Positions 17,801-33,165 of a DNA stretch of 64,000 nucleotides are shown piece after piece (position 1 is the stretch's first letter; each line of letters starts with the position of its first letter). The notes below the pieces were generated by a model that had not been told where the DNA came from, made no database searches, and saw only the letters and a list, made by a program, of their open reading frames with translations. The translations under genes were made by a program, and so were the position numbers. The stretch lies in the NCBI RefSeq assembly GCF_048403405.1, contig NZ_CP183129.1; one strand, written 5' to 3'. This DNA is from Escherichia coli. GTDB lineage: Bacteria > Pseudomonadota > Gammaproteobacteria > Enterobacterales > Enterobacteriaceae.

Positions 17801-17880
17801 ATAAAAAAGGCGCTTCCCCATGCCGAGTAGCGCCTTTTTAATCAAGCATTTAGCTAACCTGAATTAGTTCATGCCGTATT
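17801..17880. repeat. attL: 80 bp direct repeat copy carrying a duplicate of the fis 3' end and terminator hairpin
   Basis: ataaaaaaggcgcttccccatgccgagtagcgcctttttaatcaagcatttagctaacctgaattagttcatgccgtatt, identical to 33086-33165. Confidence 0.9.
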
Positions 17881-18007
17881 ATCAAAACCTATGTTTCTTA
17901 CAGTTTGTCATGGTTCGTTAGTGTTTATATAACTTATTGAATAAAATGATTAATGTTGTTTCTTTAGTTTACCTTTGTTCATTTCTGTTCATAGGGTAAT
18001 ATTAAAG

Positions 18008-18029
18008 TGTGCAGTCAGTGGTGCAGTCA
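18008..18029 (+). repeat. Candidate integrase arm-type site (left copy); internal tandem GTGCAGTCAG x2
   Basis: tgtgcagtcagtggtgcagtca also present at 33059-33080; sits 27 bp upstream of the int start codon. Confidence 0.55.
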
Positions 18030-18055
18030 GTTTTCAATATGAATTAAGGTTTTCT

Positions 18056-19279
18056 ATGGCTGGAGGAACGAACAAATTAAGCGATACATCGTTGCGTAAG
18101 ATGCTGGGGAGGGAAATCGATAGAGATAGATTTTATGCTGACGGTGATGGATTGAGTATCAAGGTGTCAAAAATTGGCGTTCTTACTTGGTATTTCTCTT
18201 TCCGGATTGGTGGGCGTGAATCGTATTCACAGCGTGTTAAGCTTGGAAACTACCCGGATCTTTCTCTGAAAGCTGCGCGCGAGAAACGTGAACAGTGTCG
18301 AGCATGGCTTGCTGAAGGTAAAAATCCAAAGCATCGGTTAAATGTGGCAATACATGAAACACTCAAACCAGTGACGGTAAAAGAGGCTCTGGATTACTGG
18401 ATCAGAGAATACGCCGTTTACAAGCGCACGAATGTTGATAAACACATTGAGCAACTGAGGAAGCATATTTTCCCCTATATAGGTGATTATCCGTTATCAA
18501 TGTGCGAAACCCGGCATTGGCTGGAGTGTTTCGCTAGAGTAAGGAATGACGCTCCAGTGGCAGCTGGTTATTTGCTGCAGATGTGTAAGCAGGCTCTGAA
18601 GTTTTGCCGCGTACATCGTTATGCGGTTAGCAATGCTCTGGATGACCTGACTATCGATGATGTTGGTAGAAAACAGAATAAGCGCGATAGGGAACACAGC
18701 AGTCAAGAGTTAGCAGATATTTGGCAGGAATGTTCAGGTAAGAAATTTAAACCATACTATTCATCGTTGTTGCGTCTATTGGTGGTGTTTGGATGTCGAA
18801 CCCAGGAGCTTCGGTTGTCACGTATTACAGAGTGGGATTTAAAGGATTGGATCTGGACAGTGCCTAAAGAACACAGCAAAGGCGGAGAGAAGATATTGCG
18901 CCCTATTCCAGTGGTAATACGCCCATTCATCCAACAGCTTATAGAGCAACACAAAAACTCAGGTCTTTTGTTGGGTGAAATAAAGAAACCAGAAGCTGTC
19001 AGCCAATGGGGGAGGATGATATATAAGCGTCTGGGGCATATTGAATCGTGGACACTTCACGACCTGCGCAGGACGTTTGCTACCACACTAAATAACATGG
19101 GGGTTGCACCACATGTTGTTGAACAGCTTCTCGGTCACACATTAGGTGGTGTAATGGCCATATACAATCGTAGCCAGTACTTACCAGAAAAACTAGACGC
19201 TCTAAATAAATGGATGGAACGGCTTGAGGTTATTTCTGGTCAGTATTCAAATGTAAAAATATTGAAGGTAGCGAAATGA
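18056..19279 (+). CDS. int: Tyrosine integrase (P4-like, N-terminal arm-binding domain)
   Basis: 407 aa from MAGGTNKLSD with RBS aagg; C-terminal catalytic residues in HDLRRTFAT and GHTLGGVMAIYNRSQY. Confidence 0.9.
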   Translation: MAGGTNKLSDTSLRKMLGREIDRDRFYADGDGLSIKVSKIGVLTWYFSFRIGGRESYSQRVKLGNYPDLSLKAAREKREQCRAWLAEGKNPKHRLNVAIHETLKPVTVKEALDYWIREYAVYKRTNVDKHIEQLRKHIFPYIGDYPLSMCETRHWLECFARVRNDAPVAAGYLLQMCKQALKFCRVHRYAVSNALDDLTIDDVGRKQNKRDREHSSQELADIWQECSGKKFKPYYSSLLRLLVVFGCRTQELRLSRITEWDLKDWIWTVPKEHSKGGEKILRPIPVVIRPFIQQLIEQHKNSGLLLGEIKKPEAVSQWGRMIYKRLGHIESWTLHDLRRTFATTLNNMGVAPHVVEQLLGHTLGGVMAIYNRSQYLPEKLDALNKWMERLEVISGQYSNVKILKVAK

Positions 19280-20013
19280 AAAAGATAAGCATCCCTGAGC
19301 GTATATATTATCCATTGCCTGAAGCAGCAAAGAAGCTGGGATGTACGCTTAATGATATATATCATTTTGCTGCTATAGGTGCTTTGAATATTTCTGTTTA
19401 TTTTCCAAACTGTCATCCATGTAAATCGCTAGTTATACCAAAATCATTAGTTGAAAATATTGATGTTGATTCAGGTGGGATGTTGCAAGGGGATCGCTGG
19501 GTAATTACAGGGATGAAGCCTGTTGGTAGCGATTTTGAATGGGTAAATTATTTTGGTGTGGCTTCTTATCTTGCAAAGAATTTTTGCGGTTTCTTCTATC
19601 TAAATCGGGAAAGTTTTTCTGAACTTGAATTTATTGGCAATGATGCAAGGATAGTATCATCTTTTTTTTCAACTCGTCCTGAATCAGAAAACTGGGAATG
19701 TCAAATTATGAGTGATGGGGCTATTGAGATCGACAGAAGGTTTTTATGTGTAATGGCTAAGGATTTGGAGCATATCAAAGATGTTGGAACCATGCCTGGA
19801 AGAAAAATGGGAGAATCGCCAAAAACTCTTGCGAAGAAAGCTGAGTTGATCCCTGCATTAATCAAACTAATTCCAGAAATGGATGATATAGATATTGGAA
19901 CTGCTCCAGTTGCTAAAGTGATCGCTGTTTTAGAGGCTGCGGCAGCGATGAAAGGGGTGTTTCTTCCCGCAACAGATAAGAATACGTGGGCTAAATACTT
20001 AGGGCGAACGTGA
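19276..20013 (+). CDS. Hypothetical accessory protein, AT-rich, between int and alpA
   Basis: 245 aa ORF whose start overlaps the int stop (ATGA); no motif I recognise; Ala-rich C-terminus. Confidence 0.55.
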   Translation: MKKISIPERIYYPLPEAAKKLGCTLNDIYHFAAIGALNISVYFPNCHPCKSLVIPKSLVENIDVDSGGMLQGDRWVITGMKPVGSDFEWVNYFGVASYLAKNFCGFFYLNRESFSELEFIGNDARIVSSFFSTRPESENWECQIMSDGAIEIDRRFLCVMAKDLEHIKDVGTMPGRKMGESPKTLAKKAELIPALIKLIPEMDDIDIGTAPVAKVIAVLEAAAAMKGVFLPATDKNTWAKYLGRT

Positions 20014-20102
20014 TATCACATATAAAATATGTGATATCACCTAAATATTCTAAGCATATTATCAATATGCTCTCGAACGATAATAAACGAGGGCATATCC
20101 AT

Positions 20103-20324
20103 ATGAGCAAAGTTAAATCATCGCAAGACCAATTTGATCGCATCATTCGTGAGGAGGAATGCCGACGCCTTACCGGTATTTGCCGAACGACGCGTTATAT
20201 GATGGAAAGGAAAGGGGTGTTTCCAGCCCGTCGTCAGTTGGGGGCTCGTTCTGTCGGTTGGTTGCTGTCTGAGGTTAATGATTGGCTTGAACGTCAACCC
20301 AAAGCACAACTGAAATCGGCGTAA
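20103..20324 (+). CDS. alpA: AlpA-family transcriptional regulator (excisionase-like HTH)
   Basis: 73 aa from MSKVKSSQDQ with RBS gaggg; RLTGICRTTRYMMERKGVFPARRQLGARSVGWLLSEVNDWL matches the AlpA family pattern. Confidence 0.8.
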   Translation: MSKVKSSQDQFDRIIREEECRRLTGICRTTRYMMERKGVFPARRQLGARSVGWLLSEVNDWLERQPKAQLKSA

Positions 20325-20673
20325 GGTGAGTTATGGTATATAAAACAAAGGCGACCGGGGGCGGTCGCCAATGGATACACACTAAACTTGAACGCATCAC
20401 CAACAATGCCACATTTGCGGCTGGTGGGCAATGTGATCAGTCAGATTTGGTTCGTTCCAAGGTTTGCAACGAGAGCTTTTTCCTGTGCTCTTTAAGGAAT
20501 TTCTCAAGAGCAAACGAACAAGGTGCGAATCTTTCTGATTCATGTTCATGCGCTATATTTTTGCGTCGTCTCTTACGAGTTGGTGATGGTGTTTTGGTTG
20601 ATTCTGTGTCGCTCATGGTGCTGTCCTGTAAAGCAATGCGCCTGCGTTCCTCAAACTATGGCGCTGATAGTGG

Positions 20674-20979
20674 CTATTCCTGCCCTTTGACCTTGCGTCG
20701 CTGGAGTTCTTCACGCGCGACGGTGACGAGTTGCCCGATCTCCTCGGCGGCTTTGACTCCGATTTTTTCAACCTGCGCTAGGGCATCGAGCGAAGAAACC
20801 AGGAGGTTTTCTCCGCTTCCTTCTGCCTGGCGGCGGGCGATTTCACCGCGCATGGCGGTTACTATGAATCCGGCGTTGCTTTCACCGTCCAGTTTTACGG
20901 ATTCCATGCCTTCAATAACATCATGCGGGATCCGAGCTGTCAGTGATTGTGATTTTGCGTTTTTTGAACCTGTAGCCAT
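20674..20979 (-). CDS. Putative small DNA-binding regulator, possibly ribbon-helix-helix
   Basis: 101 aa from MATGSKNAKS with strong RBS gagga; LTARIPHDVIEGMESVKLD resembles an RHH strand-helix; divergent from the downstream module. Confidence 0.5.
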   Translation of the reverse strand: MATGSKNAKSQSLTARIPHDVIEGMESVKLDGESNAGFIVTAMRGEIARRQAEGSGENLLVSSLDALAQVEKIGVKAAEEIGQLVTVAREELQRRKVKGQE

Positions 20980-20994
20980 CTGTAATCCTCTCAA

Positions 20995-21175
20995 TGAAAG
21001 TGTAAGACAATATACACATAAAAAGTCTTACATAAAAGCATTGACATGTAAGCCACCTATAAATAAAGTTACTTACACCTTGTTAATGCAAGGTGCAGAA
21101 ACGACGAAACCCCGCACTGTAGGAGCAGTAACGGGGCTTCTAACCACCAACGATAGCAAGATTATCGAGGCAGCT
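20995..21175. promoter_or_regulatory. Divergent promoter region with an array of TGTAAG/CTTACA half-sites
   Basis: TGTAAG at 21001 and 21047, CTTACA at 21027 and 21072, forming two inverted-repeat pairs; TTGACA at 21041. Confidence 0.45.
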
Positions 21176-21379
21176 ATGAGAAATCATACCATACACCCGC
21201 AAGGGCGGGACTCGTACAACCTGAATAAATACATCTGGCGTTTTATCGCCCTGAGCACCGCACAACCGCGCGTGATTCACATCGTGGCCACCAGCGAACA
21301 GGAAGCACGCCAGCAATCCCCGGCTGGCTGCGTGATGGTATTCGCCGCCCGCATTCGTCAGGGGGGGTGCCATGCCTGA
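21176..21379 (+). CDS. Small hypothetical protein (67 aa)
   Basis: ATG at 21176 preceded by RBS gagg; retained portion of the 348-aa track ORF, which is otherwise antisense to the regulator gene. Confidence 0.4.
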   Translation: MRNHTIHPQGRDSYNLNKYIWRFIALSTAQPRVIHIVATSEQEARQQSPAGCVMVFAARIRQGGCHA

Positions 21380-21692
21380 TATGTCAAATTACCAGTACCT
21401 GATTAATCCGCATTTTAACTGTGAGCATGATATTGCTAAAAAGGTTTATTCCGCTGCGGATGGGGCTACTGACAATATATCAATGGCTGTTGCGTCAATT
21501 GGTAGCCTGATGTGGCATGCGTCAGAAAATGAGGAATATGACGCAAAGGCCATGCGCATTGATATGGGTAATATCGGTTTGTTACTGGCAATGCTTGGAC
21601 ATTTTGATATTTCGTTACGGTGCACCATTGAAAATGCCACAGATGCATTAAATGCCATAAAGAAAGCGAATACTGATTCAAATCGGGGATAA
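21372..21692 (+). CDS. Hypothetical protein (106 aa)
   Basis: ORF in the replication module, co-directional with primase; no recognisable motif. Confidence 0.5.
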   Translation: MPDMSNYQYLINPHFNCEHDIAKKVYSAADGATDNISMAVASIGSLMWHASENEEYDAKAMRIDMGNIGLLLAMLGHFDISLRCTIENATDALNAIKKANTDSNRG

Positions 21693-21698
21693 ATAATC

Positions 21699-21998
21699 AT
21701 GAGAACATATTTATCTGGCTTGACTGCCAGCGGTTATGCACACCCTAAAATTATCCCCGGCGCTATTTATCTGGATAAGAACGGTAACAGAGTAACGGTA
21801 AAAGAACTGATGTTTGACCGTGTTTATTTTATTCGTGATGGCTATTCATTTCATAGTTCGCTGAACGTGGAGATCTTTATTTGCAGATTCCGGCGGGAAA
21901 TCCCGCTTTCCAGAAATAACCATGTGTCATGTATGGATGTTGATAAAAAACTACAGGAACTGAAAAACATGATTGCCGCGTGGAGAGAGCAGAAATGA
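21699..21998 (+). CDS. Hypothetical protein (99 aa)
   Basis: ORF whose stop overlaps the primase start (ATGA coupling). Confidence 0.5.
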   Translation: MRTYLSGLTASGYAHPKIIPGAIYLDKNGNRVTVKELMFDRVYFIRDGYSFHSSLNVEIFICRFRREIPLSRNNHVSCMDVDKKLQELKNMIAAWREQK

Positions 21999-23812
21999 AA
22001 AAAGCGCCAAATTTAAAACACCAGCCGCGTGACAAAATGACGGAAGTCATCATTTTTGCGGGTAGTGATGCGTGGGCACATGCGAAGCAGTGGCAGGAAC
22101 AGGACGGGCGACTGGCAGGCGATAACGTGCCACCTGTCTGGCTTGGAGAGCAACAACTTGCCGAACTGGACAACCTGCAAATTGTACCGGACGGACGCTA
22201 TCGCGTGCGTCTCTATCAGGCGGGGTTATTGCGTCCGGGGCTTGTTAATACCATCGGGCAGAAACTGGCAGCGGCAGGTGTCAGGGATGCTGATTATTAC
22301 CCTGAAGGAATGCACAGCCAGAAACGGGAGAACTGGCGCGAATATCTGGAACGTGAGCGGGGAGAGCTGGCGGAAAAGAAAAAGGTAGTTGAACTGCCTG
22401 TAAAGAAAAAAGAGCGGGTAAAAGACGATAACGCTTCATCACTGGCGCTTAACCAGATGGGAGCAAGTCAACGCGGCGAAGTTCTCCTGGCACATTATGG
22501 CGGTGAACTGGCGATTCATGCCGACTCTGACACTGTTCACCATTACAACGGCGTTGTATGGGAGCCAGTACAGGATAAAGAATTACAGCGAGCTATGGCG
22601 CAGATTTTCATTGATGCGGAGATCAGCTATTCGCAGAACGCCATTAAATCGGCGGTCGATACCATGAAGTTAAGTTTGCCTGTAATGGGGAATACAGCCC
22701 GTAACCTGATTGGATTCAGTAACGGGGTATTTGATACCAGAACAGGTAATTTTCGGGAGCATAACAAAAACGACTGGTTGTTAATTGCCAGTGAATTACC
22801 TTTCAGCCCACCAGCAGAGGGGGAAACGCTGGCAACACATGCGCCGAATTTCTGGAAGTGGTTACGCCGTTCGGTGGCTGAGAATGACCGCAAGGCGGAT
22901 CGCGTACTGGCGGCATTATTCATGGTGCTGGCGAACCGGTACGACTGGCAGTTATTCATTGAGGTAACAGGTCCAGGGGGAAGTGGTAAAAGCGTGATGG
23001 CGGAGATTTGCACCATGCTGGCGGGTAAGGCTAATACAGTATCAGCAAGCATGAAGGCGCTGGAAGATGCAAGGGAACGTGCGTTAGTGGTTGGCTTTTC
23101 TCTGATTATCATGCCGGATATGACCCGCTACGCTGGTGATGGGGCAGGGATTAAGGCCATTACAGGCGGTGACAAGGTGGCAATTGACCCGAAACACAAA
23201 GCTCCCTACTCAACGCGTATTCCGGCAGTAGTGCTGGCGGTTAACAATAACGCCATGTCATTCAGTGACCGCAGCGGGGGGATCTCACGTCGTCGGGTGA
23301 TATTCAATTTTTCGGAAGTTGTACCGGAGAACGAACGTGATCCGATGCTGGCGGAAAAAATAGAAGGTGAGCTGGCGGTAGTGATTCGCCATCTGCTTAC
23401 ACGGTTTGCTAACCAGGACGAAGCCAGACGCCTGTTATATGAGCAGCAGAAATCTGAAGAAGCACTGGCGATAAAGCGAGAGGGGGATTCGCTGGTGGAC
23501 TTCTGCGGCTATCTCATGGCGTCGGTAATGTGTGATGGCCTGTTAGTGGGTAATGCTGAAATTGTGCCATTCAGCCCGCGCAGATATCTCTATCATGCCT
23601 ATCTGGCTTATATGAGGGCACATGGGTTTGGTAAACCTGTAACACTGACGCGCTTCGGTAAAGATATGCCGGGGGCAATGGCGGAATATGGCAGGGAGTA
23701 TATGAAACGGAAAACGAAGCACGGTTTGCGTTCAAACGTGACACTGACGGAGGAATCAGAAGACTGGATGCCATCATGTGTATCGGTCACTAATGACGAT
23801 AGCAAAAATTAA
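21995..23812 (+). CDS. Primase-helicase of the phage/plasmid P4-alpha type (PICI pri-rep)
   Basis: About 605 aa; Walker A GPGGSGKS in the C-terminal half; followed directly by the iteron array. Confidence 0.8.
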   Translation: MKKAPNLKHQPRDKMTEVIIFAGSDAWAHAKQWQEQDGRLAGDNVPPVWLGEQQLAELDNLQIVPDGRYRVRLYQAGLLRPGLVNTIGQKLAAAGVRDADYYPEGMHSQKRENWREYLERERGELAEKKKVVELPVKKKERVKDDNASSLALNQMGASQRGEVLLAHYGGELAIHADSDTVHHYNGVVWEPVQDKELQRAMAQIFIDAEISYSQNAIKSAVDTMKLSLPVMGNTARNLIGFSNGVFDTRTGNFREHNKNDWLLIASELPFSPPAEGETLATHAPNFWKWLRRSVAENDRKADRVLAALFMVLANRYDWQLFIEVTGPGGSGKSVMAEICTMLAGKANTVSASMKALEDARERALVVGFSLIIMPDMTRYAGDGAGIKAITGGDKVAIDPKHKAPYSTRIPAVVLAVNNNAMSFSDRSGGISRRRVIFNFSEVVPENERDPMLAEKIEGELAVVIRHLLTRFANQDEARRLLYEQQKSEEALAIKREGDSLVDFCGYLMASVMCDGLLVGNAEIVPFSPRRYLYHAYLAYMRAHGFGKPVTLTRFGKDMPGAMAEYGREYMKRKTKHGLRSNVTLTEESEDWMPSCVSVTNDDSKN

Positions 23813-23824
23813 ACTTATGGAATA

Positions 23825-24049
23825 ACTGTTCACCACTGTTCACCCTGTCATAAATATCTTTTATATCAGTATATTATAGGGTTAACAGTTATTTATGAAC
23901 TGTTCACCAAACTATTCACTGTTCACCTTTTTGATTGTTTATTGAGCTTCAAGGGTGAACAGTGGTGAACAGTTGGTGAATAGTTTTTGTGAAACTGTTC
24001 ACCCCTTAACCTTATGAATTAAAAGATAAAATATCAAAAGGTGAACAGG
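23825..24049. repeat. Candidate origin of replication: array of about 9 ACTGTTCACC / GGTGAACAGT iterons with AT-rich spacers
   Basis: Direct copies at 23825, 23835, 23899, 23918, 23994; inverted copies at 23954, 23964, 24040; degenerate copies at 23909 and 23975; immediately 3' of the primase gene. Confidence 0.75.
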
Positions 24050-24196
24050 TGAAGGGTTAAAACGCAAAAATTTTAATTTACTGCTGTGAGATAAAGACTA
24101 TGACAGTAAAGCACACAAAAACACGCGCTTGATTTGACCGAATACTGGTTAAAAATGACTACAAATTAGATAAATTAGATAAAATAGGAAGAAATA

Positions 24197-24457
24197 ATGC
24201 CGATTCTGACGCATGAAATAAACAATTATTTTGATCAATTCGGACTTCATGATATTGCTTCAATGCCTACCACTCAGTACCGTCAGGCCCTTGCAAATGG
24301 TGGTTTACTGTGGATTGATCATCATGATTTTATTCGTAGCACGCTATCAGATGAAATCCTTGCAACAAATCAAGAGCAGGTTAATGTTTTGATTGAGCAT
24401 TTGCAGGTTTTAAGGAAAAAAATGCCACTACCTCCTAATTGGATGAGTGAGAAATGA
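24197..24457 (+). CDS. Hypothetical protein (86 aa)
   Basis: ATG at 24197 with RBS aggaag; convergent with the two-gene operon. Confidence 0.55.
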   Translation: MPILTHEINNYFDQFGLHDIASMPTTQYRQALANGGLLWIDHHDFIRSTLSDEILATNQEQVNVLIEHLQVLRKKMPLPPNWMSEK

Positions 24458-24459
24458 AT

Positions 24460-24490
24460 TATATGGCCTGGCTCTTTGCCAGGCCATATA
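24460..24490. terminator. Bidirectional terminator: perfect 13 bp inverted repeat between convergent stop codons
   Basis: tatatggcctggc-tctttg-ccaggccatata located exactly between the stops at 24455-24457 (+) and 24492-24494 (-). Confidence 0.75.
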
Positions 24491-24491
24491 C

Positions 24492-25001
24492 TCAAAGCAT
24501 TGTTAACAAGGCGGACGCACCAGCACCAACGAGACTGGCTACCGTACTATTATTTAGTAAATCCTTAAGCAAATTTTTTGCCTGAGGATCTTGTGATTGA
24601 GAAACTTTTTCAACAAGTTCAGTTATGCTGAGATTTACAATAAGATTGTTATGCTCACCGAGTTGAACCTGTGTACCGGATATGTTACCAATGTTAAATG
24701 TATTTTGGCTAGATTGTTTTGGTTTATGTTCATTAGCAGTCAGATTCTCGACTTTTAATGTAAGCATGTGAGGGTGATTAGTACCAACATTGAGTGTACC
24801 TCCTGGTAAAAATGACATATCAATTACTTTTAATATTATTTCCCCCTTCCCTAGTTTTTGAGTGATTTCATCTCCAATATTAATATCTGGTTCTTCAGTA
24901 TAAGGGATTAGCACTTTTTTTTCAGCTGAGTTTCTTTTCCCCTTGTATTCAACTCCTGCGATTGTGAATTTTTCTGGATATGCCATGACGTTAAGATCCA
25001 T
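24492..25001 (-). CDS. Candidate system gene B: 169-aa protein with hydrophobic Gly/Ala-rich C-terminal tail
   Basis: ATG (rc of 24999-25001) with RBS gaggag 7 nt upstream; 27 bp after gene A; C-terminus STVASLVGAGASALLTML; shares a C-terminal module with gene A. Confidence 0.7.
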   Translation of the reverse strand: MDLNVMAYPEKFTIAGVEYKGKRNSAEKKVLIPYTEEPDINIGDEITQKLGKGEIILKVIDMSFLPGGTLNVGTNHPHMLTLKVENLTANEHKPKQSSQNTFNIGNISGTQVQLGEHNNLIVNLSITELVEKVSQSQDPQAKNLLKDLLNNSTVASLVGAGASALLTML

Positions 25002-25030
25002 TATGTTGCTCCTCGTGATCGCTTTTGCGT

Positions 25031-25807
25031 TTAACTAGTAGATTTGAAAGTGTATTTTGTCTGTGTGTTAAGGTTTGATATTAGAGCTTCATAGTTTTCT
25101 TTACTCAGTAAGTTTTTTGAGTAGGCCTTCTTAAGAAGGTTTTTTGAGAGAGTAATAATTTCTTTTTCACCAGTTGATGCAATTTTTGAGAAGAACTCAG
25201 AGAGCTCTTGTATATTAATATTGTTATTTGTACCAAGTTGTACGTATTGGCTATTTACAGTAGCTATGTTGAATATGTTTTGTTTTGGATGCGTTTTTTT
25301 TAGCTTTTCAATTTCAGCATGTTCTATGATTTTTTGAGAGATACTTTCAATATAACCACTAACGTCTTTTTTTTCTGGGAAGGAAAACCCATCACCTCTT
25401 AATATTTTATCTGTTTCGGCCATTTCATAGTAAAGCCTGCGAATCATCACAAGTAATAGTAATTTAGCCTCCTCGATTGACTCCTCTATTGAGAATTGAC
25501 ATTCAATTGCTAACGCGGAGGTCTGCTCTAAAACAATTTCTGAGTTATTTTCAATGTAAGGATTGATAAAACCATTCCAAAAAATTTGAACGGGAGTACC
25601 TTTAAATGCCAAACCTTGATAGCATATTTCTGTTCCATCATATGCAGTAACTTTCATGGGGGGGCCTGCATTGAAAAATCGCCATCTATGAATCAGTTTG
25701 GTTAATCTTTCGTCAATCTCCCGAACTAATTTATAAGTCCTTTTGAACAATGGGGATGGTCGCATCCCAGGAACAGCAAGAATTTCTTTTGTCACTTGAA
25801 TCTCCAT
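25031..25807 (-). CDS. Candidate system gene A: 258-aa protein, no recognisable motifs
   Basis: First gene of the two-gene minus-strand operon; Lys/Asn/Ile-rich, AT-rich coding sequence; segment KQNIFNIATVNSQYVQLGTNNNINIQELSEFF is paralogous to gene B. Confidence 0.7.
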   Translation of the reverse strand: MEIQVTKEILAVPGMRPSPLFKRTYKLVREIDERLTKLIHRWRFFNAGPPMKVTAYDGTEICYQGLAFKGTPVQIFWNGFINPYIENNSEIVLEQTSALAIECQFSIEESIEEAKLLLLVMIRRLYYEMAETDKILRGDGFSFPEKKDVSGYIESISQKIIEHAEIEKLKKTHPKQNIFNIATVNSQYVQLGTNNNINIQELSEFFSKIASTGEKEIITLSKNLLKKAYSKNLLSKENYEALISNLNTQTKYTFKSTS

Positions 25808-26054
25808 AGTTTATCAGCATTTTTGTAAATTATTTGTGTGTTAACATTCAAGACTGTTCGTAACAAAAATACCTTATTTACATCAATTTTTTGATCCATA
25901 TCTTAAATAGTGGCACTCAGACGTGAGCCGCCACTGTTGCCGTCCGATCCCCTGCGCGATGCCGGGTTGATCTGCGAGATGCCGAGAGTGTCGGGCGGCG
26001 CTCCCTCCGTGTTGGTTTCACGTCCTGAATCTTAACCAATACGAGAAAACCTTC

Positions 26055-27224
26055 ATGAAGAAATTAATCGAGCTCCGCCAGCAAAAAAACGCCCTGAAAA
26101 ACCAGATGCGATCCCTGCTGGAAAAAGCCGACAGTGAAAACCGCAGCCTGAACGATGACGAGGGCAAACAGTTTGATGAACTGCGTGCAAAAGCTGATTC
26201 CCTCGATACAGACATTTCCCGCCTCGAGTCTGTGGCTGATGAAGAACGCAGCAAGCCAGGAACGGGCATCCAGAAAGTATCATCTGATGAATTGCGTAAC
26301 TACATCGTAACCGGAGATGTGCGATCTCTGTCCACCAGCACTGACAGCGGCAGGGATGGCGGATATACCGTAATTCCTGAGCTTGATCGCGAAGTCATGC
26401 GCCAGCTACAGGATGACAGTGTTATGCGCGTGATCGCGACCGTGAAGACTGCAAAATCAAATGAGTTTCAGAAACTGGTTTCCACTGGCGGCGCAACTGT
26501 AGGACGAGGCACAGAAGGCAGCGCACGCAGTGAAACCAACACCCCGAAAATTGAACGCGTAACCATCAAGCTGAACCCGATCTACGCCTACCCGAAAACC
26601 ACGCAGGAAATCCTAGATTTTTCAGAGGTGGATATTCTGGGCTGGTTATCCTCCGAAATTGCCGACACGTTCGCCAGCACCGAAGAGGATGATTTTGTTA
26701 ATGGCAACGGTAACGGCAAGCCGAAAGGCTTCATGGCTTACACCCGTGCGGCGACCAGTGACAAAACCCGCGCTTTTGGCACCATTGAAAAAATGGTAGC
26801 GGCAAGTGGAACCGCCATTACAGCGGACGAACTGATCGACATTCTCTACAAGCTGAAAGCGAAATACCGCAAAAATGCCGTCTGGGTGATGAACTCGGGC
26901 ACGGCAGGGACACTACAGAAGCTGAAAAATGAGAACGGCGATTATATCTGGCGCGACAGCCTTAAAGAAGGTGCGCCGGATATGTTGCTTGGTCGTCCTG
27001 TTTACTGCCTGGAGTCCATGCCGGACATCGGCGCAGGAAAAGCACCGCTAGCGGTTGGCGATTTCAGTCGTGGTTATTTCATCGTTGATCATGTAACAGG
27101 GATTCGCACCCGACCGGACAACATTACTGAACCCGGATTCTACAAGGTCCACACGGATAAATATCTGGGCGGTGGTGTGGTGGATTCAAACGCCATCAAA
27201 ATTCTGGAAATGAAAGCTGGCTAG
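26055..27224 (+). CDS. Major capsid protein, HK97 fold, with N-terminal coiled-coil delta/scaffold domain
   Basis: 389 aa; coiled-coil N-terminus then conserved MCP blocks (LLGRPVYCLESMP, GDFSRGYFIVDHVTGIRTRPD, NAIKILEMKAG). Confidence 0.85.
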   Translation: MKKLIELRQQKNALKNQMRSLLEKADSENRSLNDDEGKQFDELRAKADSLDTDISRLESVADEERSKPGTGIQKVSSDELRNYIVTGDVRSLSTSTDSGRDGGYTVIPELDREVMRQLQDDSVMRVIATVKTAKSNEFQKLVSTGGATVGRGTEGSARSETNTPKIERVTIKLNPIYAYPKTTQEILDFSEVDILGWLSSEIADTFASTEEDDFVNGNGNGKPKGFMAYTRAATSDKTRAFGTIEKMVAASGTAITADELIDILYKLKAKYRKNAVWVMNSGTAGTLQKLKNENGDYIWRDSLKEGAPDMLLGRPVYCLESMPDIGAGKAPLAVGDFSRGYFIVDHVTGIRTRPDNITEPGFYKVHTDKYLGGGVVDSNAIKILEMKAG

Positions 27225-27278
27225 TCATGAGTAAGGAGGAGGCTGCGGCCTCCTTTTTCAGCTTTATGGAGTACACCG

Positions 27279-27839
27279 ATGAAAAACACCGATTTTGAAA
27301 TCCGCACATCTGAACTGACCGCCAGCAATAAAAAGCTGGTGGGGTATGCCGTTCGCTGGAACAGCCTTTCAGAAATTATCTGGGACGAATTCCGCGAACA
27401 GTTCACGCCGGGGGCTTTTGCTGACTATCTGGCGGCGGGTAATGATGTGCGCTGCCTGTATGAGCATGACTATACCCAACTGCTGGGGCGCACCAAATCC
27501 GGCACTCTGGTACTGACTGAGGATAACACCGGGTTACGTTTTGAACTGACACCGCCGGATACCCAGCTTGGAAAAGATGTGCTTACGCTGGTGGAGCGTG
27601 GCGACATTACAGGAATGAGCTTTGGTTTTCGCGCATTATGCGAGGAGTGGAGTATCGCGCAAAAACCGTATTTGCGTACCGTAACCGCCGCTGAACTCCG
27701 TGAAATCACAATAACGTCGATGCCTGCTTATCCAGAATCTGGCGTGGAGATTGCCCACCGTTCGTTGTTTGCACAGCACCCTGAATTATGCCCGACAGGA
27801 AATAATCGTCATCGCTGGTCTGAGCTGGCGGGGTTGTGA
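27279..27839 (+). CDS. Prohead maturation protease, HK97 family
   Basis: 186 aa; pattern FEIR...GYAVRWN...GAF...LYEHD...LGRT...GMSFGFR...MPAYPE typical of HK97 prohead protease. Confidence 0.8.
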   Translation: MKNTDFEIRTSELTASNKKLVGYAVRWNSLSEIIWDEFREQFTPGAFADYLAAGNDVRCLYEHDYTQLLGRTKSGTLVLTEDNTGLRFELTPPDTQLGKDVLTLVERGDITGMSFGFRALCEEWSIAQKPYLRTVTAAELREITITSMPAYPESGVEIAHRSLFAQHPELCPTGNNRHRWSELAGL

Positions 27840-27840
27840 T

Positions 27841-29055
27841 ATGTGGTGGCCTTTTAGTCGTAAAAAAAGCGAGCAGCGTAACCTGTCCATTGATGATTTT
27901 CTGGCGCTGTCCGGCGTACCGAATACCGGATCCGGAGAATATGTTTCTGCCGGGACGGCTGAATCATTGCCTGCAGTGATGAATGCGGTTTCTGTCATCG
28001 CTGAGGCGGTGGCCACGATGCCGTGTTATCTGTATCTGGTACGTAATGACAAGGGCAGGGAGGCGCGGGAATGGCTGGACAGTCACCCGGTAGATATTCT
28101 GCTGAATGAGCAGCCTAATTCGTGCCAGACACCTTACCAGTTTAAACGCACAATGATGCGTCACTGCCTGCTGAACGGTAACGCCTATGCGGTTATTGAG
28201 TGGGGGCAGGACGGGCAGCCAAAATCACTTCATCCTTATGCGCCGGGGTGTGTTGTACCGGAACGCACAGGCGCACACAAATACCGCTATACCATCACCG
28301 AACCCTATACAGGAACGGTGCGCACGTATTTACAGGAAGAAGTTCTGCATCTCCGCTATGCCTCGGATGATGGCTTTCTGGGGCGCTCCCCCGTCACGAT
28401 TTGCCGTGAGGCACTTGGGCTTGGCCTTGCTCAACAGCGCCACGGAGCCAGCATTATGAAAGATGGCATGATGGCGGCAGGGATTATCACGTCAGGCGAA
28501 TGGCTGGACGGCGTGAAAGGTAAACAGGCATTGGATGCTCTGGAACGCTACAAGGGGGCGAAAAATGCCGGAAAAACGCCAATCCTTGAAGGGGGCATGG
28601 ATTACAGGCAACTGGGAATGAGTAACCAGGATGCGGAATGGCTGGCCTCCCGTCGCTTCTCCATTGAAGACATCGCCCGCATGTTCAACGTATCGCCTAT
28701 TTTTCTGCAGGAATACAGCAACAGCACCTACAGCAATTTCAGCGAGGCAAGCCGCGCGTTTCTGACCATGACAATGCGCCCGTGGCTGGCGAACTTCGAA
28801 CAGCAAATCAAGGCCGCTTTGCTGGTGGCTTCTCCCGTACCTGGTACCCGTTATCTGGTTGAGTTTGATTCAGCCGATTTATTACGCGCCACACCCACCG
28901 AACGTTATGCCACGTATGAGAAAGGGATTAAGAACGGGATCATGAATCCGAACGAAGCCCGTGAGCGTGAGGGTATGCCGCCGCGTGAAGGTGGTGATGA
29001 GTTCAGCCAGGCATGGAAACAGACTGTGGAAATTAAAGGGAGAAAAGATGAGTGA
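27841..29055 (+). CDS. Portal protein, HK97 family
   Basis: 404 aa from MWWPFSRKK, starting 2 nt after the protease stop; the track ORF's upstream extension overlaps the protease. Confidence 0.8.
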   Translation: MWWPFSRKKSEQRNLSIDDFLALSGVPNTGSGEYVSAGTAESLPAVMNAVSVIAEAVATMPCYLYLVRNDKGREAREWLDSHPVDILLNEQPNSCQTPYQFKRTMMRHCLLNGNAYAVIEWGQDGQPKSLHPYAPGCVVPERTGAHKYRYTITEPYTGTVRTYLQEEVLHLRYASDDGFLGRSPVTICREALGLGLAQQRHGASIMKDGMMAAGIITSGEWLDGVKGKQALDALERYKGAKNAGKTPILEGGMDYRQLGMSNQDAEWLASRRFSIEDIARMFNVSPIFLQEYSNSTYSNFSEASRAFLTMTMRPWLANFEQQIKAALLVASPVPGTRYLVEFDSADLLRATPTERYATYEKGIKNGIMNPNEAREREGMPPREGGDEFSQAWKQTVEIKGRKDE

Positions 29056-29350
29056 AGCCAGAATTACACCTGATGAAGTCAGGGCACATCTTCGACTTGA
29101 TGATGATTTATCCGGTGAAGGCGAACTTCTGAAAATGTATACCGATGCGGCGCTGGAAGCCTGCCAGAAGCATATCGGGAAACGTTTTGAAGACGGGCTG
29201 GAATTTACCCCGGCAATGCGTGTTGGTTGCCTGATGTACATCGCTTTCCTGTACGAGAACCGGGAAGCGGTTTCACCAGTGGAGCACTCGGAACTGCCTA
29301 TGGCTATTTCTGCGCTCTGGTCAGTTTATCGTGACGTAGGGGTGTACTGA
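29048..29350 (+). CDS. Head-tail connector (gp6-like) protein
   Basis: 100 aa, MSEARITPDEVRAHLRLDDDLSGEGELLKMYTDAALEACQKHIGKRF; start overlaps the portal stop. Confidence 0.7.
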   Translation: MSEARITPDEVRAHLRLDDDLSGEGELLKMYTDAALEACQKHIGKRFEDGLEFTPAMRVGCLMYIAFLYENREAVSPVEHSELPMAISALWSVYRDVGVY

Positions 29351-29790
29351 TGCCGTGGCAACCATTAAGGCGATGCACTGAGCCTGGCTGTAATAAGCGC
29401 GTGAAGTCCGGCAAGTGTGAAGAGCACAGGCGGGCTGCATGGCGTGCAGAGGATGCCAGACGGGGACACCGCCGCGCGCGCGGGTATTCCCGACAGTGGG
29501 ACAAATACCGCGCCCTGTACCTGAGCAAAAACCCGTTATGCGTGCGTTGTCTGGCTAAGGGGATTTATACGCCAGCTCTTGTGGTGGATCACATCATTCC
29601 CATCAATGGCGGCGGTGATGTTCTCTTCTGGCCTGAGTGGAATCACCAGGCATTGTGCCAGACGTGCCACAACCGTAAGACGACACGGGAAGATCCAGCC
29701 ACGAAAGCAAACCGTAAAGCGGGCATGTATCACGAGCAGGAAGAACGGGCGGCACACCGTAACGACTGGATGTATGGCGATGATGACTGA
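29350..29790 (+). CDS. HNH endonuclease (cos-packaging accessory nuclease)
   Basis: 146 aa; Cys-rich HNH core CVRCLAKG...VVDHIIPINGGGD...NHQALCQTCHNRKT. Confidence 0.85.
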   Translation: MPWQPLRRCTEPGCNKRVKSGKCEEHRRAAWRAEDARRGHRRARGYSRQWDKYRALYLSKNPLCVRCLAKGIYTPALVVDHIIPINGGGDVLFWPEWNHQALCQTCHNRKTTREDPATKANRKAGMYHEQEERAAHRNDWMYGDDD

Positions 29791-29960
29791 ACAGGAGCAA
29801 ACCAGGCTGATACGTGGACTGATAAGGCAGCGTGACACATGGAAGACACAGGAGACAGAGCACAAAGCCAACAGGACAGGGCGCACAAAACTCACCACAG
29901 CGAAGCGATTAACCGACCGTGACCGCGAGGTCATGGAATGTTTTCGCAATCGCTGGTGAG

Positions 29961-30026
29961 GCCGTCAGAGGGGGTGGGGGTGGTTTTCAGGACGAAACCG
30001 TCCCTGCCGGACACCGACCGCCCCCT
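29961..30026. other. Candidate cos/packaging site between HNH and terS
   Basis: G-tract gagggggtgggggtgg and complementary C-tract ccgccccctc flanking palindrome ggacgaaaccgtcc, in the 290 bp gap upstream of terS. Confidence 0.35.
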
Positions 30027-30078
30027 CAAATTTTTGTGCACGGTAATTTTTTTGAAAATAATTGGGCGAAAAAAGAAC

Positions 30079-30435
30079 ATGGCAAGACCACCAAAAGCCC
30101 CCGCTTACCTGGATGAAATCGCGGTCAGGCAGTGGAAGGAAAAATCGCGCCAGCTTTCCGGGCGGGAAGACCTTACCCCCGCCGACTGGAGCAATCTGGA
30201 ACTGTATTGTGTTAACTACTCCATATACCGCAAAGCCGTCGAAGACCTTGCGACGCGCGGGTTCAGCATTGTTAACAGTCAGGGCAGCGAGAGCAGAAAC
30301 CCCGCACTGAGCGCAAAGGCTGACGCAGAAAGAATAATGATCAAAATGGCTTCTTTGCTGGGTTTTGACCCGGTAAGCCGTCGCAGAAATCCACCGGAAA
30401 CAGAGGAAGAGGACGAACTTGACCGCCTGGCATGA
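30079..30435 (+). CDS. Terminase small subunit (P27-family-like)
   Basis: 118 aa from MARPPKAPAYLDEIAVRQWKEK; directly upstream of and overlapping terL; acidic C-terminus. Confidence 0.75.
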   Translation: MARPPKAPAYLDEIAVRQWKEKSRQLSGREDLTPADWSNLELYCVNYSIYRKAVEDLATRGFSIVNSQGSESRNPALSAKADAERIMIKMASLLGFDPVSRRRNPPETEEEDELDRLA

Positions 30436-32080
30436 GTACGCAGAAGGCGTAAAAAACGGCAAAATTACGGCCTGTAAACGACTGAAACAGGCCGTTAAAC
30501 GGTATTTTTCTGACCTTGAAAACTCCCTTTACACGTTCGATCCGGAGGTCGTGGAGCGGTTTATTGCCTTTTCCCGGGTGTGTCCGCACGTAAAAGGCGC
30601 AATGCGCGGTAGTCCCATTGAACTGGAGCCGTGGCAGCAGTTCGCCTTTGCCTGCATCCTGGGCTTTAAGGTTAAGGCCACCGGACGGCGCAAATACACC
30701 AGCGCATTCATTGAAGTACCGCGAAAAAATGCCAAATCCACGGTCGCCGCTATCCTGGCTAACTGGTTTCTGGTTATGGAAAACGGGCAGCAGGATATTT
30801 ACACCGCCGCCGTGAGTCGTGATCAGGCGCGGATCGTGTTTGATGATGCGCGTCAGATGTGCCTTTTATCCCGACCGTTACGAAAGCGGGTAAATATTCA
30901 GGCACACAAGGTGATACACCCGAAAACTAACAGCCTGTTAAAGCCACTGGCAGCAAAAGCGGCAACCATTGAAGGTACAAATCCGAGTCTTGCCATTGTG
31001 GATGAATATCACCTGCACCCTGACAACGGGGTTTATTCCGCACTTGAGCTGGGGATGGGGGCGCGTCCGGAGGGGCTGTTATTTGCCATCACCACATCGG
31101 GGAGCAACGTTGTTTCAGCCTGTAAACAACACTATGACTATTGCTGTCAGATACTGGATGGTGAAGAGATGAACGAATCCATGTTCGTTCTGATTTACGA
31201 GCTGGATGATGAAAGCGAGGTTGACGATCCGGCCATGTGGATAAAGGCGAATCCAAATATCGATGTTTCCGTCGATCGTGAAAAACTGGCCTCAACCATC
31301 CAGAAAGCGCGGGGTATTCCGTCGCAGTGGGTGGAAATGCTCACCAAGCGATTCAATATCTGGTGTCAGGGGGCTACGCCGTGGATGGGTAACGGTGCAT
31401 GGGCGGAGTGCGCCGGAACGTTCGCGGAGGCGGATTTATACGGGCAGGAGTGCTACGCGGGACTGGACTTATCATCAACCAGCGATATTTCCAGCGTGTG
31501 CTATGCCTTTCCGGTCGGTAAAAAGATTATGCTGGTTTCCCGTCACTATCTGCCGGAATTTCAGCTACAGAACCCCGCCAATAAAAACCGCGCCATCTAT
31601 CGCCAGTGGGTAAAGGCGGGCTGGATACGCACAACACCGGGTGACTGCATTGATTATGACCGTATCCGTGATGACATCATGGCGGATGCAGAGAATTTCA
31701 ATATCAGGCTGGTGGGCTTCGATACATGGAACGCCACGCACCTGAGGACGCAGCTACAGGGGGCAGGATTTGAGGTGGAGCCGTTCCCGCAAACATACCT
31801 TCGTTTCAGTCCGGCGGCGAAATCGTTCGAAGTTTTTGTTAACCGGAAGGTGATTGTGCATCGTGGTGATCCGGTGCTGGCCTGGTCAATGAGTAATGTT
31901 GTGATGCAGAGTGACGCGAACGCCAATATCAAGCCGAACAAGAAAAAATCATCCAACAAGATAGACCCGAGCGTTGCGGCGCTGATGGCGTTTGGCACAT
32001 TCCAGGCAGAGCATGAGGAATTTGCATTTGATATGAGCGACAGCCACAAAGAGCGACTTGCGGCGTTTGATGGGGTATGA
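30419..32080 (+). CDS. Terminase large subunit
   Basis: 553 aa; ATPase N-terminal domain and nuclease C-terminal domain typical of TerL. Confidence 0.85.
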   Translation: MTAWHEYAEGVKNGKITACKRLKQAVKRYFSDLENSLYTFDPEVVERFIAFSRVCPHVKGAMRGSPIELEPWQQFAFACILGFKVKATGRRKYTSAFIEVPRKNAKSTVAAILANWFLVMENGQQDIYTAAVSRDQARIVFDDARQMCLLSRPLRKRVNIQAHKVIHPKTNSLLKPLAAKAATIEGTNPSLAIVDEYHLHPDNGVYSALELGMGARPEGLLFAITTSGSNVVSACKQHYDYCCQILDGEEMNESMFVLIYELDDESEVDDPAMWIKANPNIDVSVDREKLASTIQKARGIPSQWVEMLTKRFNIWCQGATPWMGNGAWAECAGTFAEADLYGQECYAGLDLSSTSDISSVCYAFPVGKKIMLVSRHYLPEFQLQNPANKNRAIYRQWVKAGWIRTTPGDCIDYDRIRDDIMADAENFNIRLVGFDTWNATHLRTQLQGAGFEVEPFPQTYLRFSPAAKSFEVFVNRKVIVHRGDPVLAWSMSNVVMQSDANANIKPNKKKSSNKIDPSVAALMAFGTFQAEHEEFAFDMSDSHKERLAAFDGV

Positions 32081-32367
32081 CGAGAATGACTGAAACTGAT
32101 CTACTAAAAATAATTCGCCGCATTACCGGAATCAGTCAGCAGCCTGACGAACAGGCTACACAGCCGGACAGCGTGATAGCCGAAAATTACGCGCGTGTGG
32201 TGGCTGAGGTGATGCGCCGTGACGGTATTGAGCTTAACGGCGTGGATATGCGCAACATACGAACCAGAGTCCTTGAGTTGCTGGCATACCGTCGCCGTTC
32301 TCAACAACGGAGGGAGAGCGCGAAAAATACTTACCAGTGGAAGAAGCCGGAACGACTGCGGCGGTAA
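32077..32367 (+). CDS. Hypothetical protein (96 aa), translationally coupled to terL
   Basis: ATGA overlap with the terL stop; basic C-terminus; possibly a head-completion protein. Confidence 0.5.
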   Translation: MTRMTETDLLKIIRRITGISQQPDEQATQPDSVIAENYARVVAEVMRRDGIELNGVDMRNIRTRVLELLAYRRRSQQRRESAKNTYQWKKPERLRR

Positions 32368-32408
32368 CTTGCTGATATTCCCGATAACGCAAAATTGCGT
32401 TGGCTGGC
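32366..32408 (+). repeat. Copy 1 of a 43 bp imperfect direct repeat in the right-end non-coding region, followed by palindrome TGCAAATTTGCA (32414-32425)
   Basis: taacttgctgatattcccgataacgcaaaattgcgttggctgg versus copy 2 at 32669-32711, about 35 of 43 identical by eye. Confidence 0.6.
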
Positions 32409-32668
32409 ATAGTGCAAATTTGCACGATGACCTAACCCATTGACTTTTCTTCAATCCTCAATTTTGAGGAGGCCGGAAGATAAAAAACTGTCAAAACTTG
32501 TCATGCAAAACGTTACCAGCACGGCTATTGATTTATTCGGCCCCTGCAACTGCTCCCAGAATGGTGGGGATCTGAAATCCGACCCTGAAAAAGTGCGCAA
32601 AAGTGGTACGCAAAAATTAGCGTCCAGCCACAGCCACCAGCTAGACAGAACGCCCAGAGCATTGTCAG

Positions 32669-33085: not shown

Positions 33086-33165
33086 ATAAAAAAGGCGCTT
33101 CCCCATGCCGAGTAGCGCCTTTTTAATCAAGCATTTAGCTAACCTGAATTAGTTCATGCCGTATT
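33086..33165. repeat. attR: 80 bp direct repeat overlapping the last 17 nt of fis and its terminator
   Basis: Identical to 17801-17880; the fis stop codon (33149-33151) lies inside the repeat. Confidence 0.9.

What the first reader, a model, noticed from the sequence alone, without database searches (positions are those of the whole stretch)
23825..24049. Bidirectional iteron array marks the satellite replication origin
About nine copies of the 10-mer ACTGTTCACC in direct and inverted orientation, interspersed with AT-rich spacers, lie immediately 3' of the primase-helicase gene. This is the classic layout of a PICI pri-rep/ori unit and implies autonomous replication after excision.
Basis: partly seen in the sequence, partly recalled or inferred. 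Interest (0 to 1): 0.45.

Follow-up and report, generated by a model that had tools for sequence, protein, structure and literature searches.

The report
P4-type replication origin of a phage satellite
The repeat cluster is real and is almost certainly the replication origin of a 15.3-kb capsid-forming phage satellite in E. coli; it uses the same 8-base binding site and layout as the classic satellite phage P4, so it is a well-understood kind of element, not a new one.

Summary
Observation confirmed. Window 23826-24056 holds 12 copies of CTGTTCACC (8 perfect, 2 with one mismatch, 2 with two). They start 13 bp after the stop codon of the 'primase' gene. The rest of the window predicts about 0.07 copies in such a stretch.

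Interpretation supported and sharpened.
- The array is two ~105-bp modules in inverted orientation.
- Each module is collinear, within 1-2 bp, with the type-1 iteron region of the phage P4 origin: 3 iterons, 1 opposite iteron plus CCyTTAAC, a ~35-bp spacer of ~20% GC, then 2 iterons.
- The core TGTTCACC is the P4 ori/crr iteron.
- The upstream protein is 50% identical to P4 alpha over the helicase and origin-binding domain (PDB 1ka8, E 2e-24).
- It is 49% identical over its full length to EcCICFT073 Pri-Rep, whose adjacent ori has published replication tests. That ori has the same layout with a different iteron (CTGTCTACC).
- Iteron sequence changes with the origin-binding domain across seven elements.

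The island (17801-33165, inserted at the 3' end of fis) has the gene content of a capsid-forming PICI (cf-PICI).

Caveats: nothing was tested functionally here. The 'primase' lacks the zinc-ribbon and Toprim domains of P4 alpha.

Verdict: a new member of a known kind, of low to moderate interest.

The parts
21995..23812 (+). Initiator gene ('DNA primase family protein', Pri-Rep / P4 alpha-like). It has D5_N, an SF3 helicase (DUF5906) and a C-terminal Pox_D5 winged-helix origin-binding domain. The longest ORF starts at 21980; RefSeq starts the identical gene at the equivalent of 21995.
   Evidence: Pfam. 50% identity to P4 alpha over aa 150-600. 49% identity over the full length to EcCICFT073 Pri-Rep. 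RefSeq annotation of the identical island.
23483..23773 (+). Coding region for the origin-binding domain (aa 502-598 of the 610-aa ORF), the predicted reader of the iterons.
   Evidence: phmmer hit to PDB 1ka8, the P4 origin-binding domain, E 1.8e-24. Alignment A3.
23826..23927 (-). Origin module A, a P4-ori-like module in reverse-complement orientation. Iterons at 23826-34 (+), 23836-44 (+), 23880-88 (-, 1 mismatch), 23900-08 (+), 23912-20 (+, 2 mismatches), 23919-27 (+).
23845..23879 (.). AT-rich spacer of module A: 35 bp, 20% GC (13% in the 30-bp window 23850-23879). Candidate melting site.
23928..23953 (.). Central 26-bp spacer (27% GC) between the two inverted modules. It is the centre of the ~230-bp imperfect palindrome.
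   Evidence: (inverted repeats I1, I2).
23954..24056 (+). Origin module B, collinear with P4 ori 9310-9413. Iterons at 23954-62 (-), 23964-72 (-), 23975-83 (-, 1 mismatch), 23995-24003 (+, followed by CCTTAAC), 24040-48 (-), 24048-56 (-, 2 mismatches).
24004..24039 (.). AT-rich spacer of module B: 36 bp, 19% GC (17% in the 30-bp window 24010-24039). Candidate melting site.
17801..17880 (+). attL: the left copy of an 80-bp exact direct repeat that bounds the island.
33086..33165 (+). attR: the right copy of the 80-bp repeat. It includes the terminator and the last codons of fis. attL start to attR start is 15,285 bp.

Best explanation
The array is the vegetative replication origin of a 15.3-kb capsid-forming PICI inserted at the 3' end of fis. 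It consists of two inverted copies of a P4-ori-type module. The island's initiator is a P4 alpha homologue encoded immediately upstream. I infer the following steps. Its C-terminal winged-helix domain binds the 12 CTGTTCACC iterons, which sit 10-11 bp apart within clusters and so lie on one face of the helix. Initiator molecules bound to the two modules assemble the SF3 helicase on the AT-rich DNA (the two ~20% GC spacers and/or the central 26 bp) and melt it. The head-to-head arrangement favours two opposed helicase rings and bidirectional replication of the excised circle after helper-phage induction. Priming is probably done by host DnaG, because the protein has no intact primase domain. 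What is shown here: the repeats, their layout, the homology of array and protein to P4 and to EcCICFT073, and the covariation of iteron with binding domain. What is inferred: binding, melting, helicase loading and the source of primers.
For: (1) The clustering is far beyond chance. (2) The core equals the 'ori type 1 repeat' TGTTCACC annotated in P4 ori (6 copies) and crr (10 copies, just 3' of alpha). (3) Module B aligns with P4 ori at 68.7% identity. Iteron columns are 45/48 identical against 34/67 elsewhere, Fisher p 4e-7. Iteron spacings are 10, 11, 20, 45, 8 bp against 10, 11, 21, 44, 10 bp in P4. (4) The protein's C-terminus matches the solved P4 origin-binding domain at E 1.8e-24, and helicase plus binding domain are 50% identical to alpha. 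(5) EcCICFT073 Pri-Rep is 49% identical over its full length. The region 3' of it has the same >> < >>> | <<< > << layout at nearly the same offsets from the stop codon, but with iteron CTGTCTACC. That pri-rep-ori unit supported plasmid maintenance, and deleting rep or ori reduced it (PMC6092414). (6) Covariation. A PICI whose Pri-Rep is 76% identical, with the main divergence in the last ~35 residues of the binding domain, uses GGTAGACAG. Pasteurella Pmp7 uses TCTTCAC-type iterons. Serratia phage Scapp uses AAAAGTGCA. In all of them the array lies 3' of the gene. (7) Across 80 IMG/VR loci with the same binding domain (50 distinct downstream sequences) the array is kept with about 10 iterons. 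Conservation stops near 24080, so gene plus array move as one module. The same module sits in a different cf-PICI with another integrase. (8) cf-PICIs replicate after induction (10.1101/2022.09.08.507074).
Against: There are no functional data for this island. P4 needs two separated cis elements (ori and crr), and it is an assumption that two adjacent inverted modules fulfil both roles. Among near-identical relatives, substitutions are not significantly depleted in iteron cores (32/96 variable core columns against 43/145 outside, p 0.57). There is too little divergence there, and the core changes are mostly whole-unit indels. The initiator lacks Zn-ribbon and Toprim domains, so the priming step is unexplained. 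Iterons of this kind commonly also act in copy control or autoregulation, which the data cannot separate from origin function.
Confidence: 0.85

Rival explanations
1. The array is only a crr-like cis enhancer or a copy-control ('handcuffing') site that binds the initiator, while DNA synthesis starts at another site in the island.
For: In P4 the iteron cluster immediately 3' of alpha is crr, not ori, and the true ori lies 4.5 kb away. Iterons in plasmids commonly have control roles (general knowledge).
Against: No second cluster exists in the island. Outside the array there is one exact copy inside the initiator gene, which encodes TVHH and is not kept in the Klebsiella relative, and one 1-mismatch copy in int. 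Both modules have the six-iteron 3+1+2 pattern of P4 ori rather than the 1+3+2 pattern of the crr repeats. In EcCICFT073 the homologous region was the tested ori.
Confidence: 0.08
2. The repeats are transcriptional operators through which the initiator or another island protein regulates the downstream accessory genes or its own operon, with no role in replication.
For: The array lies between two co-oriented genes, with no terminator after the initiator gene.
Against: No sigma-70-like promoter was found in 23500-24600 (0 against 3.9 expected). The DNA downstream of ~24080 is mosaic, while the array always travels with the initiator gene. Homology to two characterised origins argues against it.
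Confidence: 0.04
3. The array is the packaging (cos or pac) site recognised by the island's own terminase.
For: cf-PICIs package their own DNA specifically.
Against: cf-PICIs have cohesive ends and an HK97-type HNH-TerS-TerL module. In such systems cos lies next to terS (general knowledge). The record of the related induced element vB_KppS-Ant begins 22 bp before terS, not at the array, though this may be an assembly convention. The same array occurs in classical PICIs that have no terminase.
Confidence: 0.02
4. The repeats are a chance or low-complexity feature of an AT-rich intergenic region.
For: None beyond the low GC content of the region.
Against: 0 of 100 shuffles reach the observed count, and Poisson P is about 1e-18. 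The array is conserved in hundreds of genomes.
Confidence: 0.01

Closest known systems
Phage P4 origin (ori, 'oriI') and cis replication region (crr), bound by the gp-alpha C-terminal domain
   Same: Identical octamer TGTTCACC in both orientations. Six iterons per module in the order 3 / 1 opposite + CCyTTAAC / AT-rich spacer / 2, with spacings equal within 1-2 bp. The initiator is 50% identical over the SF3 helicase and winged-helix origin-binding domain. An iteron cluster lies directly 3' of the initiator gene, as crr does in P4.
   Different: P4 has one ori module plus two direct 120-bp crr repeats 4.5 kb away, whereas here two ori-like modules are adjacent and inverted. No P4 type-2 repeats were seen in the conserved block. 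There is no terminator between gene and array. The initiator lacks the Zn-ribbon and Toprim primase part of alpha. The rest of the island shares no P4 morphogenesis genes (sid, delta, psu).
EcCICFT073 pri-rep-ori replicon (Gram-negative PICIs; Fillol-Salom et al. 2018, PMC6092414)
   Same: The initiator has the same domain order and is 49% identical end to end, including the N-terminal domain. The array has the same 2-1-3 | 3-1-2 orientation pattern and almost the same offsets from the stop codon. The surrounding gene order is the same: int, alpA, Icd-like, DUF4222, pri-rep, ori.
   Different: The iteron is CTGTCTACC rather than CTGTTCACC. Spacer B of EcCICFT073 is GC-rich. EcCICFT073 is a classical PICI that uses helper capsids, whereas this island carries its own capsid and terminase genes.
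cf-PICI EcCIEDL933 and relatives (Alqurainy et al., 10.1101/2022.09.08.507074)
   Same: Similar size (15.3 kb against 15.4 kb). int-alpA-rep followed by capsid, protease, portal, connector, HNH, TerS and TerL, with no tail or lysis genes. A cf-PICI in tqsA of a STEC strain carries the same initiator gene plus array, at 95% DNA identity over the 681-bp query covering the 3' end of the gene and the array.
   Different: Different integrase and attachment site (fis 3' end) and different accessory genes after the origin. I did not locate EcCIEDL933 itself, so its identity to this island is untested. The cf-PICI papers do not describe the origin.
[quoted passage not shown]
   Same: The same logic: an origin immediately 3' of the initiator gene, with two iteron sets around AT-rich DNA (as summarised in PMC6092414).
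   Different: No sequence relationship was tested here. SaPIs have separate pri and rep genes and short hexamer iterons (from memory, not checked).

Membership tests
Gram-negative PICI pri-rep/ori replicon | The origin lies immediately 3' of the replication initiator gene. | tested here: met
   The first iteron starts 13 bp after the stop codon.
Gram-negative PICI pri-rep/ori replicon | Two sets of iterons flank AT-rich DNA. | tested here: met
   12 iterons in two inverted modules. Two spacers of ~20% GC (13-17% in 30-bp windows) and a 27% GC centre.
Gram-negative PICI pri-rep/ori replicon | The initiator is homologous to a PICI Pri-Rep of tested function. | tested here: met
   49% identity over 596 aligned residues to EcCICFT073 Pri-Rep. 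The array layout is the same.
Gram-negative PICI pri-rep/ori replicon | The fragment supports initiator-dependent autonomous replication. | not testable with these tools
   This needs the plasmid maintenance assay of PMC6092414.
P4-type origin (type-1 iterons / alpha origin-binding domain) | Repeated octamer TGTTCACC in both orientations. | tested here: met
   8 exact octamers in the array, which is the same octamer annotated in the P4 record.
P4-type origin (type-1 iterons / alpha origin-binding domain) | The initiator carries the alpha-type C-terminal winged-helix origin-binding domain. | tested here: met
   PDB 1ka8 at E 1.8e-24 and Pfam Pox_D5.
P4-type origin (type-1 iterons / alpha origin-binding domain) | Separate ori and crr elements, both required in cis, about 4.5 kb apart. 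| tested here: not met
   There is a single locus with two adjacent inverted modules and no second cluster in the island.
P4-type origin (type-1 iterons / alpha origin-binding domain) | The initiator has an N-terminal DnaG-type primase (Zn ribbon plus Toprim). | tested here: not met
   P4 alpha hits Zn_Ribbon_Prim and Toprim_3. The window protein has neither, and its N-terminal 175 aa has no Pfam hit. There is only a weak Toprim-like fold without the acidic motifs.
P4-type origin (type-1 iterons / alpha origin-binding domain) | Three tandem 10-bp type-2 repeats beside the type-1 iterons. | tested here: not met
   No further repeat family lies in the conserved block 23813-24080. The only tandem 9-mer (24163-24180) lies in the variable region.
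Capsid-forming PICI (cf-PICI) | Size of 10-18 kb, bounded by att repeats. | tested here: met
   80-bp direct repeats 15,285 bp apart.
Capsid-forming PICI (cf-PICI) | int, alpA and a replication module, followed by capsid, protease, portal, connector, HNH, TerS and TerL. | tested here: met
   Pfam hits and the RefSeq annotation of the identical island.
Capsid-forming PICI (cf-PICI) | No tail module and no lysis genes. | tested here: met
   None is annotated between attL and attR.
Capsid-forming PICI (cf-PICI) | Induction by a helper phage and packaging into its own small capsids. | not testable with these tools
   Experimental.

The most novel reading that the evidence does not exclude
E. coli PICIs and cf-PICIs of this allele carry a compacted P4 replicon. 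ori and crr have collapsed into one palindromic double module, served by an alpha-derived initiator that has lost its primase. Because its binding domain and iteron are those of P4, P4-family satellites and these PICIs could fire, titrate or block each other's origins when they share a cell. That would be cross-replication or incompatibility between two satellite families that are regarded as independent.
Probability: 0.3. Interest if true: 0.5.

Novelty: new member of a known kind. Interest (0 to 1): 0.25.

Why it matters
It fixes the position and anatomy of the origin of a widespread cf-PICI replicon. DNA similar to the query (the last 111 bp of the initiator gene, the array and ~140 bp downstream) is present in about 11% of complete E. 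coli genomes (593 of 5,426). It also links that replicon directly to the biochemically characterised P4 alpha/iteron system. This gives ready-made predictions: which residues read which bases, what a minimal replicon is, and which elements should be incompatible. [quoted passage not shown] It adds no new principle of replication.

Tried and rejected
- A full-text search for TGTTCACC returned only unrelated primer listings.
- A P4 oriI/oriII literature search returned only Vibrio papers. P4 facts therefore rest on the GenBank record annotation, the PDB entry and PMC4889955.
- I tested whether substitutions avoid iteron cores among 48 near-identical arrays. The result was not significant (p 0.57) because divergence is too low and the core changes are mostly whole-unit indels.
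- I tested whether the exact 10-mer inside the initiator gene (22532) is a functional extra site. It was rejected: it encodes TVHH and is not kept in the Klebsiella relative that uses the same iteron.
- No Rfam family was found in the island.
- No PADLOC hit was found for the three ORFs after the origin.
- I did not locate EcCIEDL933 itself.
- The large genome contigs and metagenome scans were not run, because seven elements with four iteron types already gave the covariation.

Full report
**1. The observation**

The sequence 23813-24060 was read directly.

- The 10-mer ACTGTTCACC has 16 hits with at most one mismatch in the 64-kb window. That compares with 3.4 expected, and 0 of 100 shuffles reach 16. 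Ten of the hits lie in 23825-24049.
- The 8-mer core TGTTCACC has 11 exact hits against 1.7 expected, eight of them in the array.
- A 9-mer scan (CTGTTCACC, up to two mismatches) finds 12 sites: 23826+, 23836+, 23880-, 23900+, 23912+, 23919+, 23954-, 23964-, 23975-, 23995+, 24040-, 24048-.
- Eight of the 12 are perfect, two have one mismatch and two have two.
- The background rate gives 0.07 sites per 241 bp, so Poisson P is about 1e-18. No other 241-bp stretch has more than two sites.
- The stop codon of ORF 21980-23812 is 13 bp upstream of the first site.
- GC falls to 13% (23850-23879) and 17% (24010-24039) in 30-bp windows.

The copy number is 12 rather than nine, and the right edge is 24056.

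**2. Anatomy**

The repeat finder reports long imperfect inverted repeats: 56-nt arms at 71% and 36-nt arms at 83%. The array resolves into two modules of about 105 bp.

- Module B (23954-24056, + strand) reads: three iterons GGTGAACAG spaced 10 and 11 bp; one opposite iteron CTGTTCACC followed by CCTTAAC; a 36-bp spacer of 19% GC; then two iterons.
- Module A (23826-23927) is the reverse complement of the same plan.
- A 26-bp spacer (27% GC) separates the two modules.

As single-stranded DNA the whole array folds into one long hairpin (-49 kcal/mol, z = -9). This follows from the inverted modules and is not independent evidence of function.

There is no terminator between the gene and the array, and no sigma-70-like promoter in 23500-24600. 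No Rfam family matches anywhere in the island.

**3. Context**

The window is E. coli chromosome. An identical island in strain 4621 is annotated with this gene order: int, hypothetical, AlpA-type HTH, YlcI (opposite strand), Icd-like, hypothetical, DUF4222, 'DNA primase family protein'. After the array come three hypotheticals, then major capsid, HK97 protease, portal, connector, HNH, TerS (P27 family) and TerL. The island lies between yhdJ and fis.

An exact 80-bp direct repeat (17801-17880 and 33086-33165) bounds the island. The repeat contains the terminator and last codons of fis. The two copies start 15,285 bp apart.

Size, gene set and the absence of tail and lysis genes match the published definition of capsid-forming PICIs.

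**4. The initiator**

- Pfam finds D5_N (aa 167-296), DUF5906 (an SF3 helicase, 330-438) and Pox_D5 (501-596).
- The C-terminus matches PDB 1ka8, the phage P4 origin-binding domain, at E 1.8e-24.
- tblastn gives 50% identity to P4 alpha over aa 150-600.
- P4 gp-alpha is a DnaG-type primase fused to an SF3 helicase and a C-terminal winged-helix origin binder (PMC4889955).
- P4 alpha hits Zn_Ribbon_Prim and Toprim_3, but the window protein hits neither. Its first 175 residues have no Pfam match.

**5. The array is a P4-type origin**

The P4 GenBank record annotates 'ori type 1 repeat' six times in ori (9310-9413). It annotates the same repeat ten times in crr (4291-4590), the cis-required region just 3' of alpha. 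The sequences read TGTTCACC and GGTGAACA.

Window module B, module A (reverse complement), P4 ori and the two modules of the Klebsiella-derived element vB_KppS-Ant align collinearly.

- Module B is 68.7% identical to P4 ori, as close as it is to module A (67%).
- Identity is 45/48 in iteron columns against 34/67 elsewhere (Fisher p 4e-7).
- Successive iteron offsets are 10, 11, 20, 45 and 8 bp in module B, against 10, 11, 21, 44 and 10 bp in P4 ori.

**6. Link to a tested PICI origin**

EcCICFT073 Pri-Rep is 49% identical to the window protein over its whole length, N-terminal domain included.

The 288 bp after its stop codon carry CTGTCTACC-type iterons in the same >> < >>> | <<< > << order. 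Their offsets are 14, 23, 72, 91, 102, 111 | 145, 156, 175, 212/224, 233. The window offsets are 14, 24, 68, 88, 100, 107 | 142, 152, 163, 183, 228, 236.

Fillol-Salom et al. describe Gram-negative PICI origins as two iteron sets flanking an AT-rich region 3' of the initiator. They report that the EcCICFT073 rep-ori segment maintains a ts plasmid at the restrictive temperature, and that deleting rep or ori impairs this (PMC6092414).

**7. Covariation**

| Element | Initiator vs window | Iteron |
|---|---|---|
| vB_KppS-Ant | 74% identity | GTTCACC |
| O157:H7 classical PICI | 83% DNA identity over the OBD-plus-array query | GTTCACC |
| cf-PICI in tqsA | 95% DNA identity over the OBD-plus-array query | array matched by the query; iterons not read |
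| E. coli F8111 PICI | 76% identity | GGTAGACAG |
| Pasteurella Pmp7 | 34% identity | TCTTCAC / GTGAAnA, one module still followed by TTTAAC |
| Serratia phage Scapp | 38% identity | AAAAGTGCA, both orientations |

- In the F8111 PICI the binding domain is nearly the same as the window's. The main difference is the last ~35 residues, where KRKTKHG-LRSN becomes RAKCTKGPDKGRTITN.
- In every case the array lies 3' of the initiator gene.
- This is the pattern expected if the C-terminal domain reads the repeats.
- Mapping the specificity to the wing segment is my inference.

**8. Modularity**

Eighty IMG/VR loci encode a 98-100% identical binding domain and give 50 distinct downstream sequences. 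All keep 8-11 iterons.

Conservation is high through about 24080 and collapses beyond it: 111 of 142 columns vary. The initiator gene plus array therefore move as a unit into islands with different integrases and cargo.

Similar DNA occurs in 593 (megablast) to 783 (blastn) of 5,426 complete E. coli genomes.

**9. Rivals**

- A crr-only or copy-control role is weakened by the absence of any second cluster in the island.
- The exact copy at 22532 encodes TVHH and is not preserved in Ant.
- An operator role is weakened by the lack of promoters and by the mosaic downstream DNA.
- A cos role is unlikely. The same array occurs in PICIs that have no terminase, and cf-PICI cos sites belong to the HNH-TerS region.
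- Chance is excluded by the statistics in section 1.

**10. Side result on the 'primase'**

The N-terminal ~135 residues are conserved in the family. In some database entries they are fused to RepA/AAA_25 helicases.

Where Toprim has EGxxD the family has an invariant AGSDA. No DxD follows strand 3 (VRLYQAG). A profile comparison with P4 alpha finds nothing.

My reading is a degenerate, probably inactive Toprim remnant, so primers probably come from host DnaG. This is tentative.

**11. Verdict**

- The feature is the origin of a cf-PICI replicon.
- It is homologous both to the tested EcCICFT073 ori and to P4 ori. It is built as two inverted P4-ori modules that share P4's iteron.
- It is a new member of a known kind.
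- The modest new points are the close collinearity with P4, the natural specificity switches and the primase-less initiator. All of these are untested at the bench.

Noticed in passing
[not shown]
   Followed up: partly
window 17801-17880 and 33086-33165: An exact 80-bp direct repeat (att) bounds a 15,285-bp island inserted at the 3' end of fis. The repeat regenerates the fis stop codon and terminator.
   Followed up: yes
window 24080-25810: A low-GC (~36%) mosaic cargo region lies right after the conserved replicon block. It holds orf86 (+, phrog_1957) and two minus-strand ORFs of 169 and 258 aa (phrog_5789). None has a Pfam, NCBIfam or PADLOC hit. A strong bidirectional terminator hairpin lies at 24460-24490. 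These may be accessory or anti-phage genes of unknown function.
   Followed up: partly
L087 9027-9416 and 9420-9800 (E. coli F8111 PICI) versus window 23420-24056: A natural specificity switch. The Pri-Rep is 76% identical, with the binding domain nearly the same apart from the last ~35 residues, yet the iteron changes from GGTGAACAG to GGTAGACAG. This points to the wing segment as the base-reading element.
   Followed up: partly
window 20333-21379: The mechanical 348-aa ORF here is probably spurious. RefSeq annotates a YlcI/YnfO gene on the opposite strand and a short Icd-like gene in this interval of the identical island.
   Followed up: no
window 2271-2465 and 5775-5850: [quoted passage not shown]
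   Followed up: no
E. coli genomes collection: Genomes that match the binding-domain-plus-array query have a median of 2 and up to 12 matching places. Several elements with related initiators or iterons therefore often share one cell, which bears on possible origin cross-talk. The other places were not inspected.
   Followed up: no
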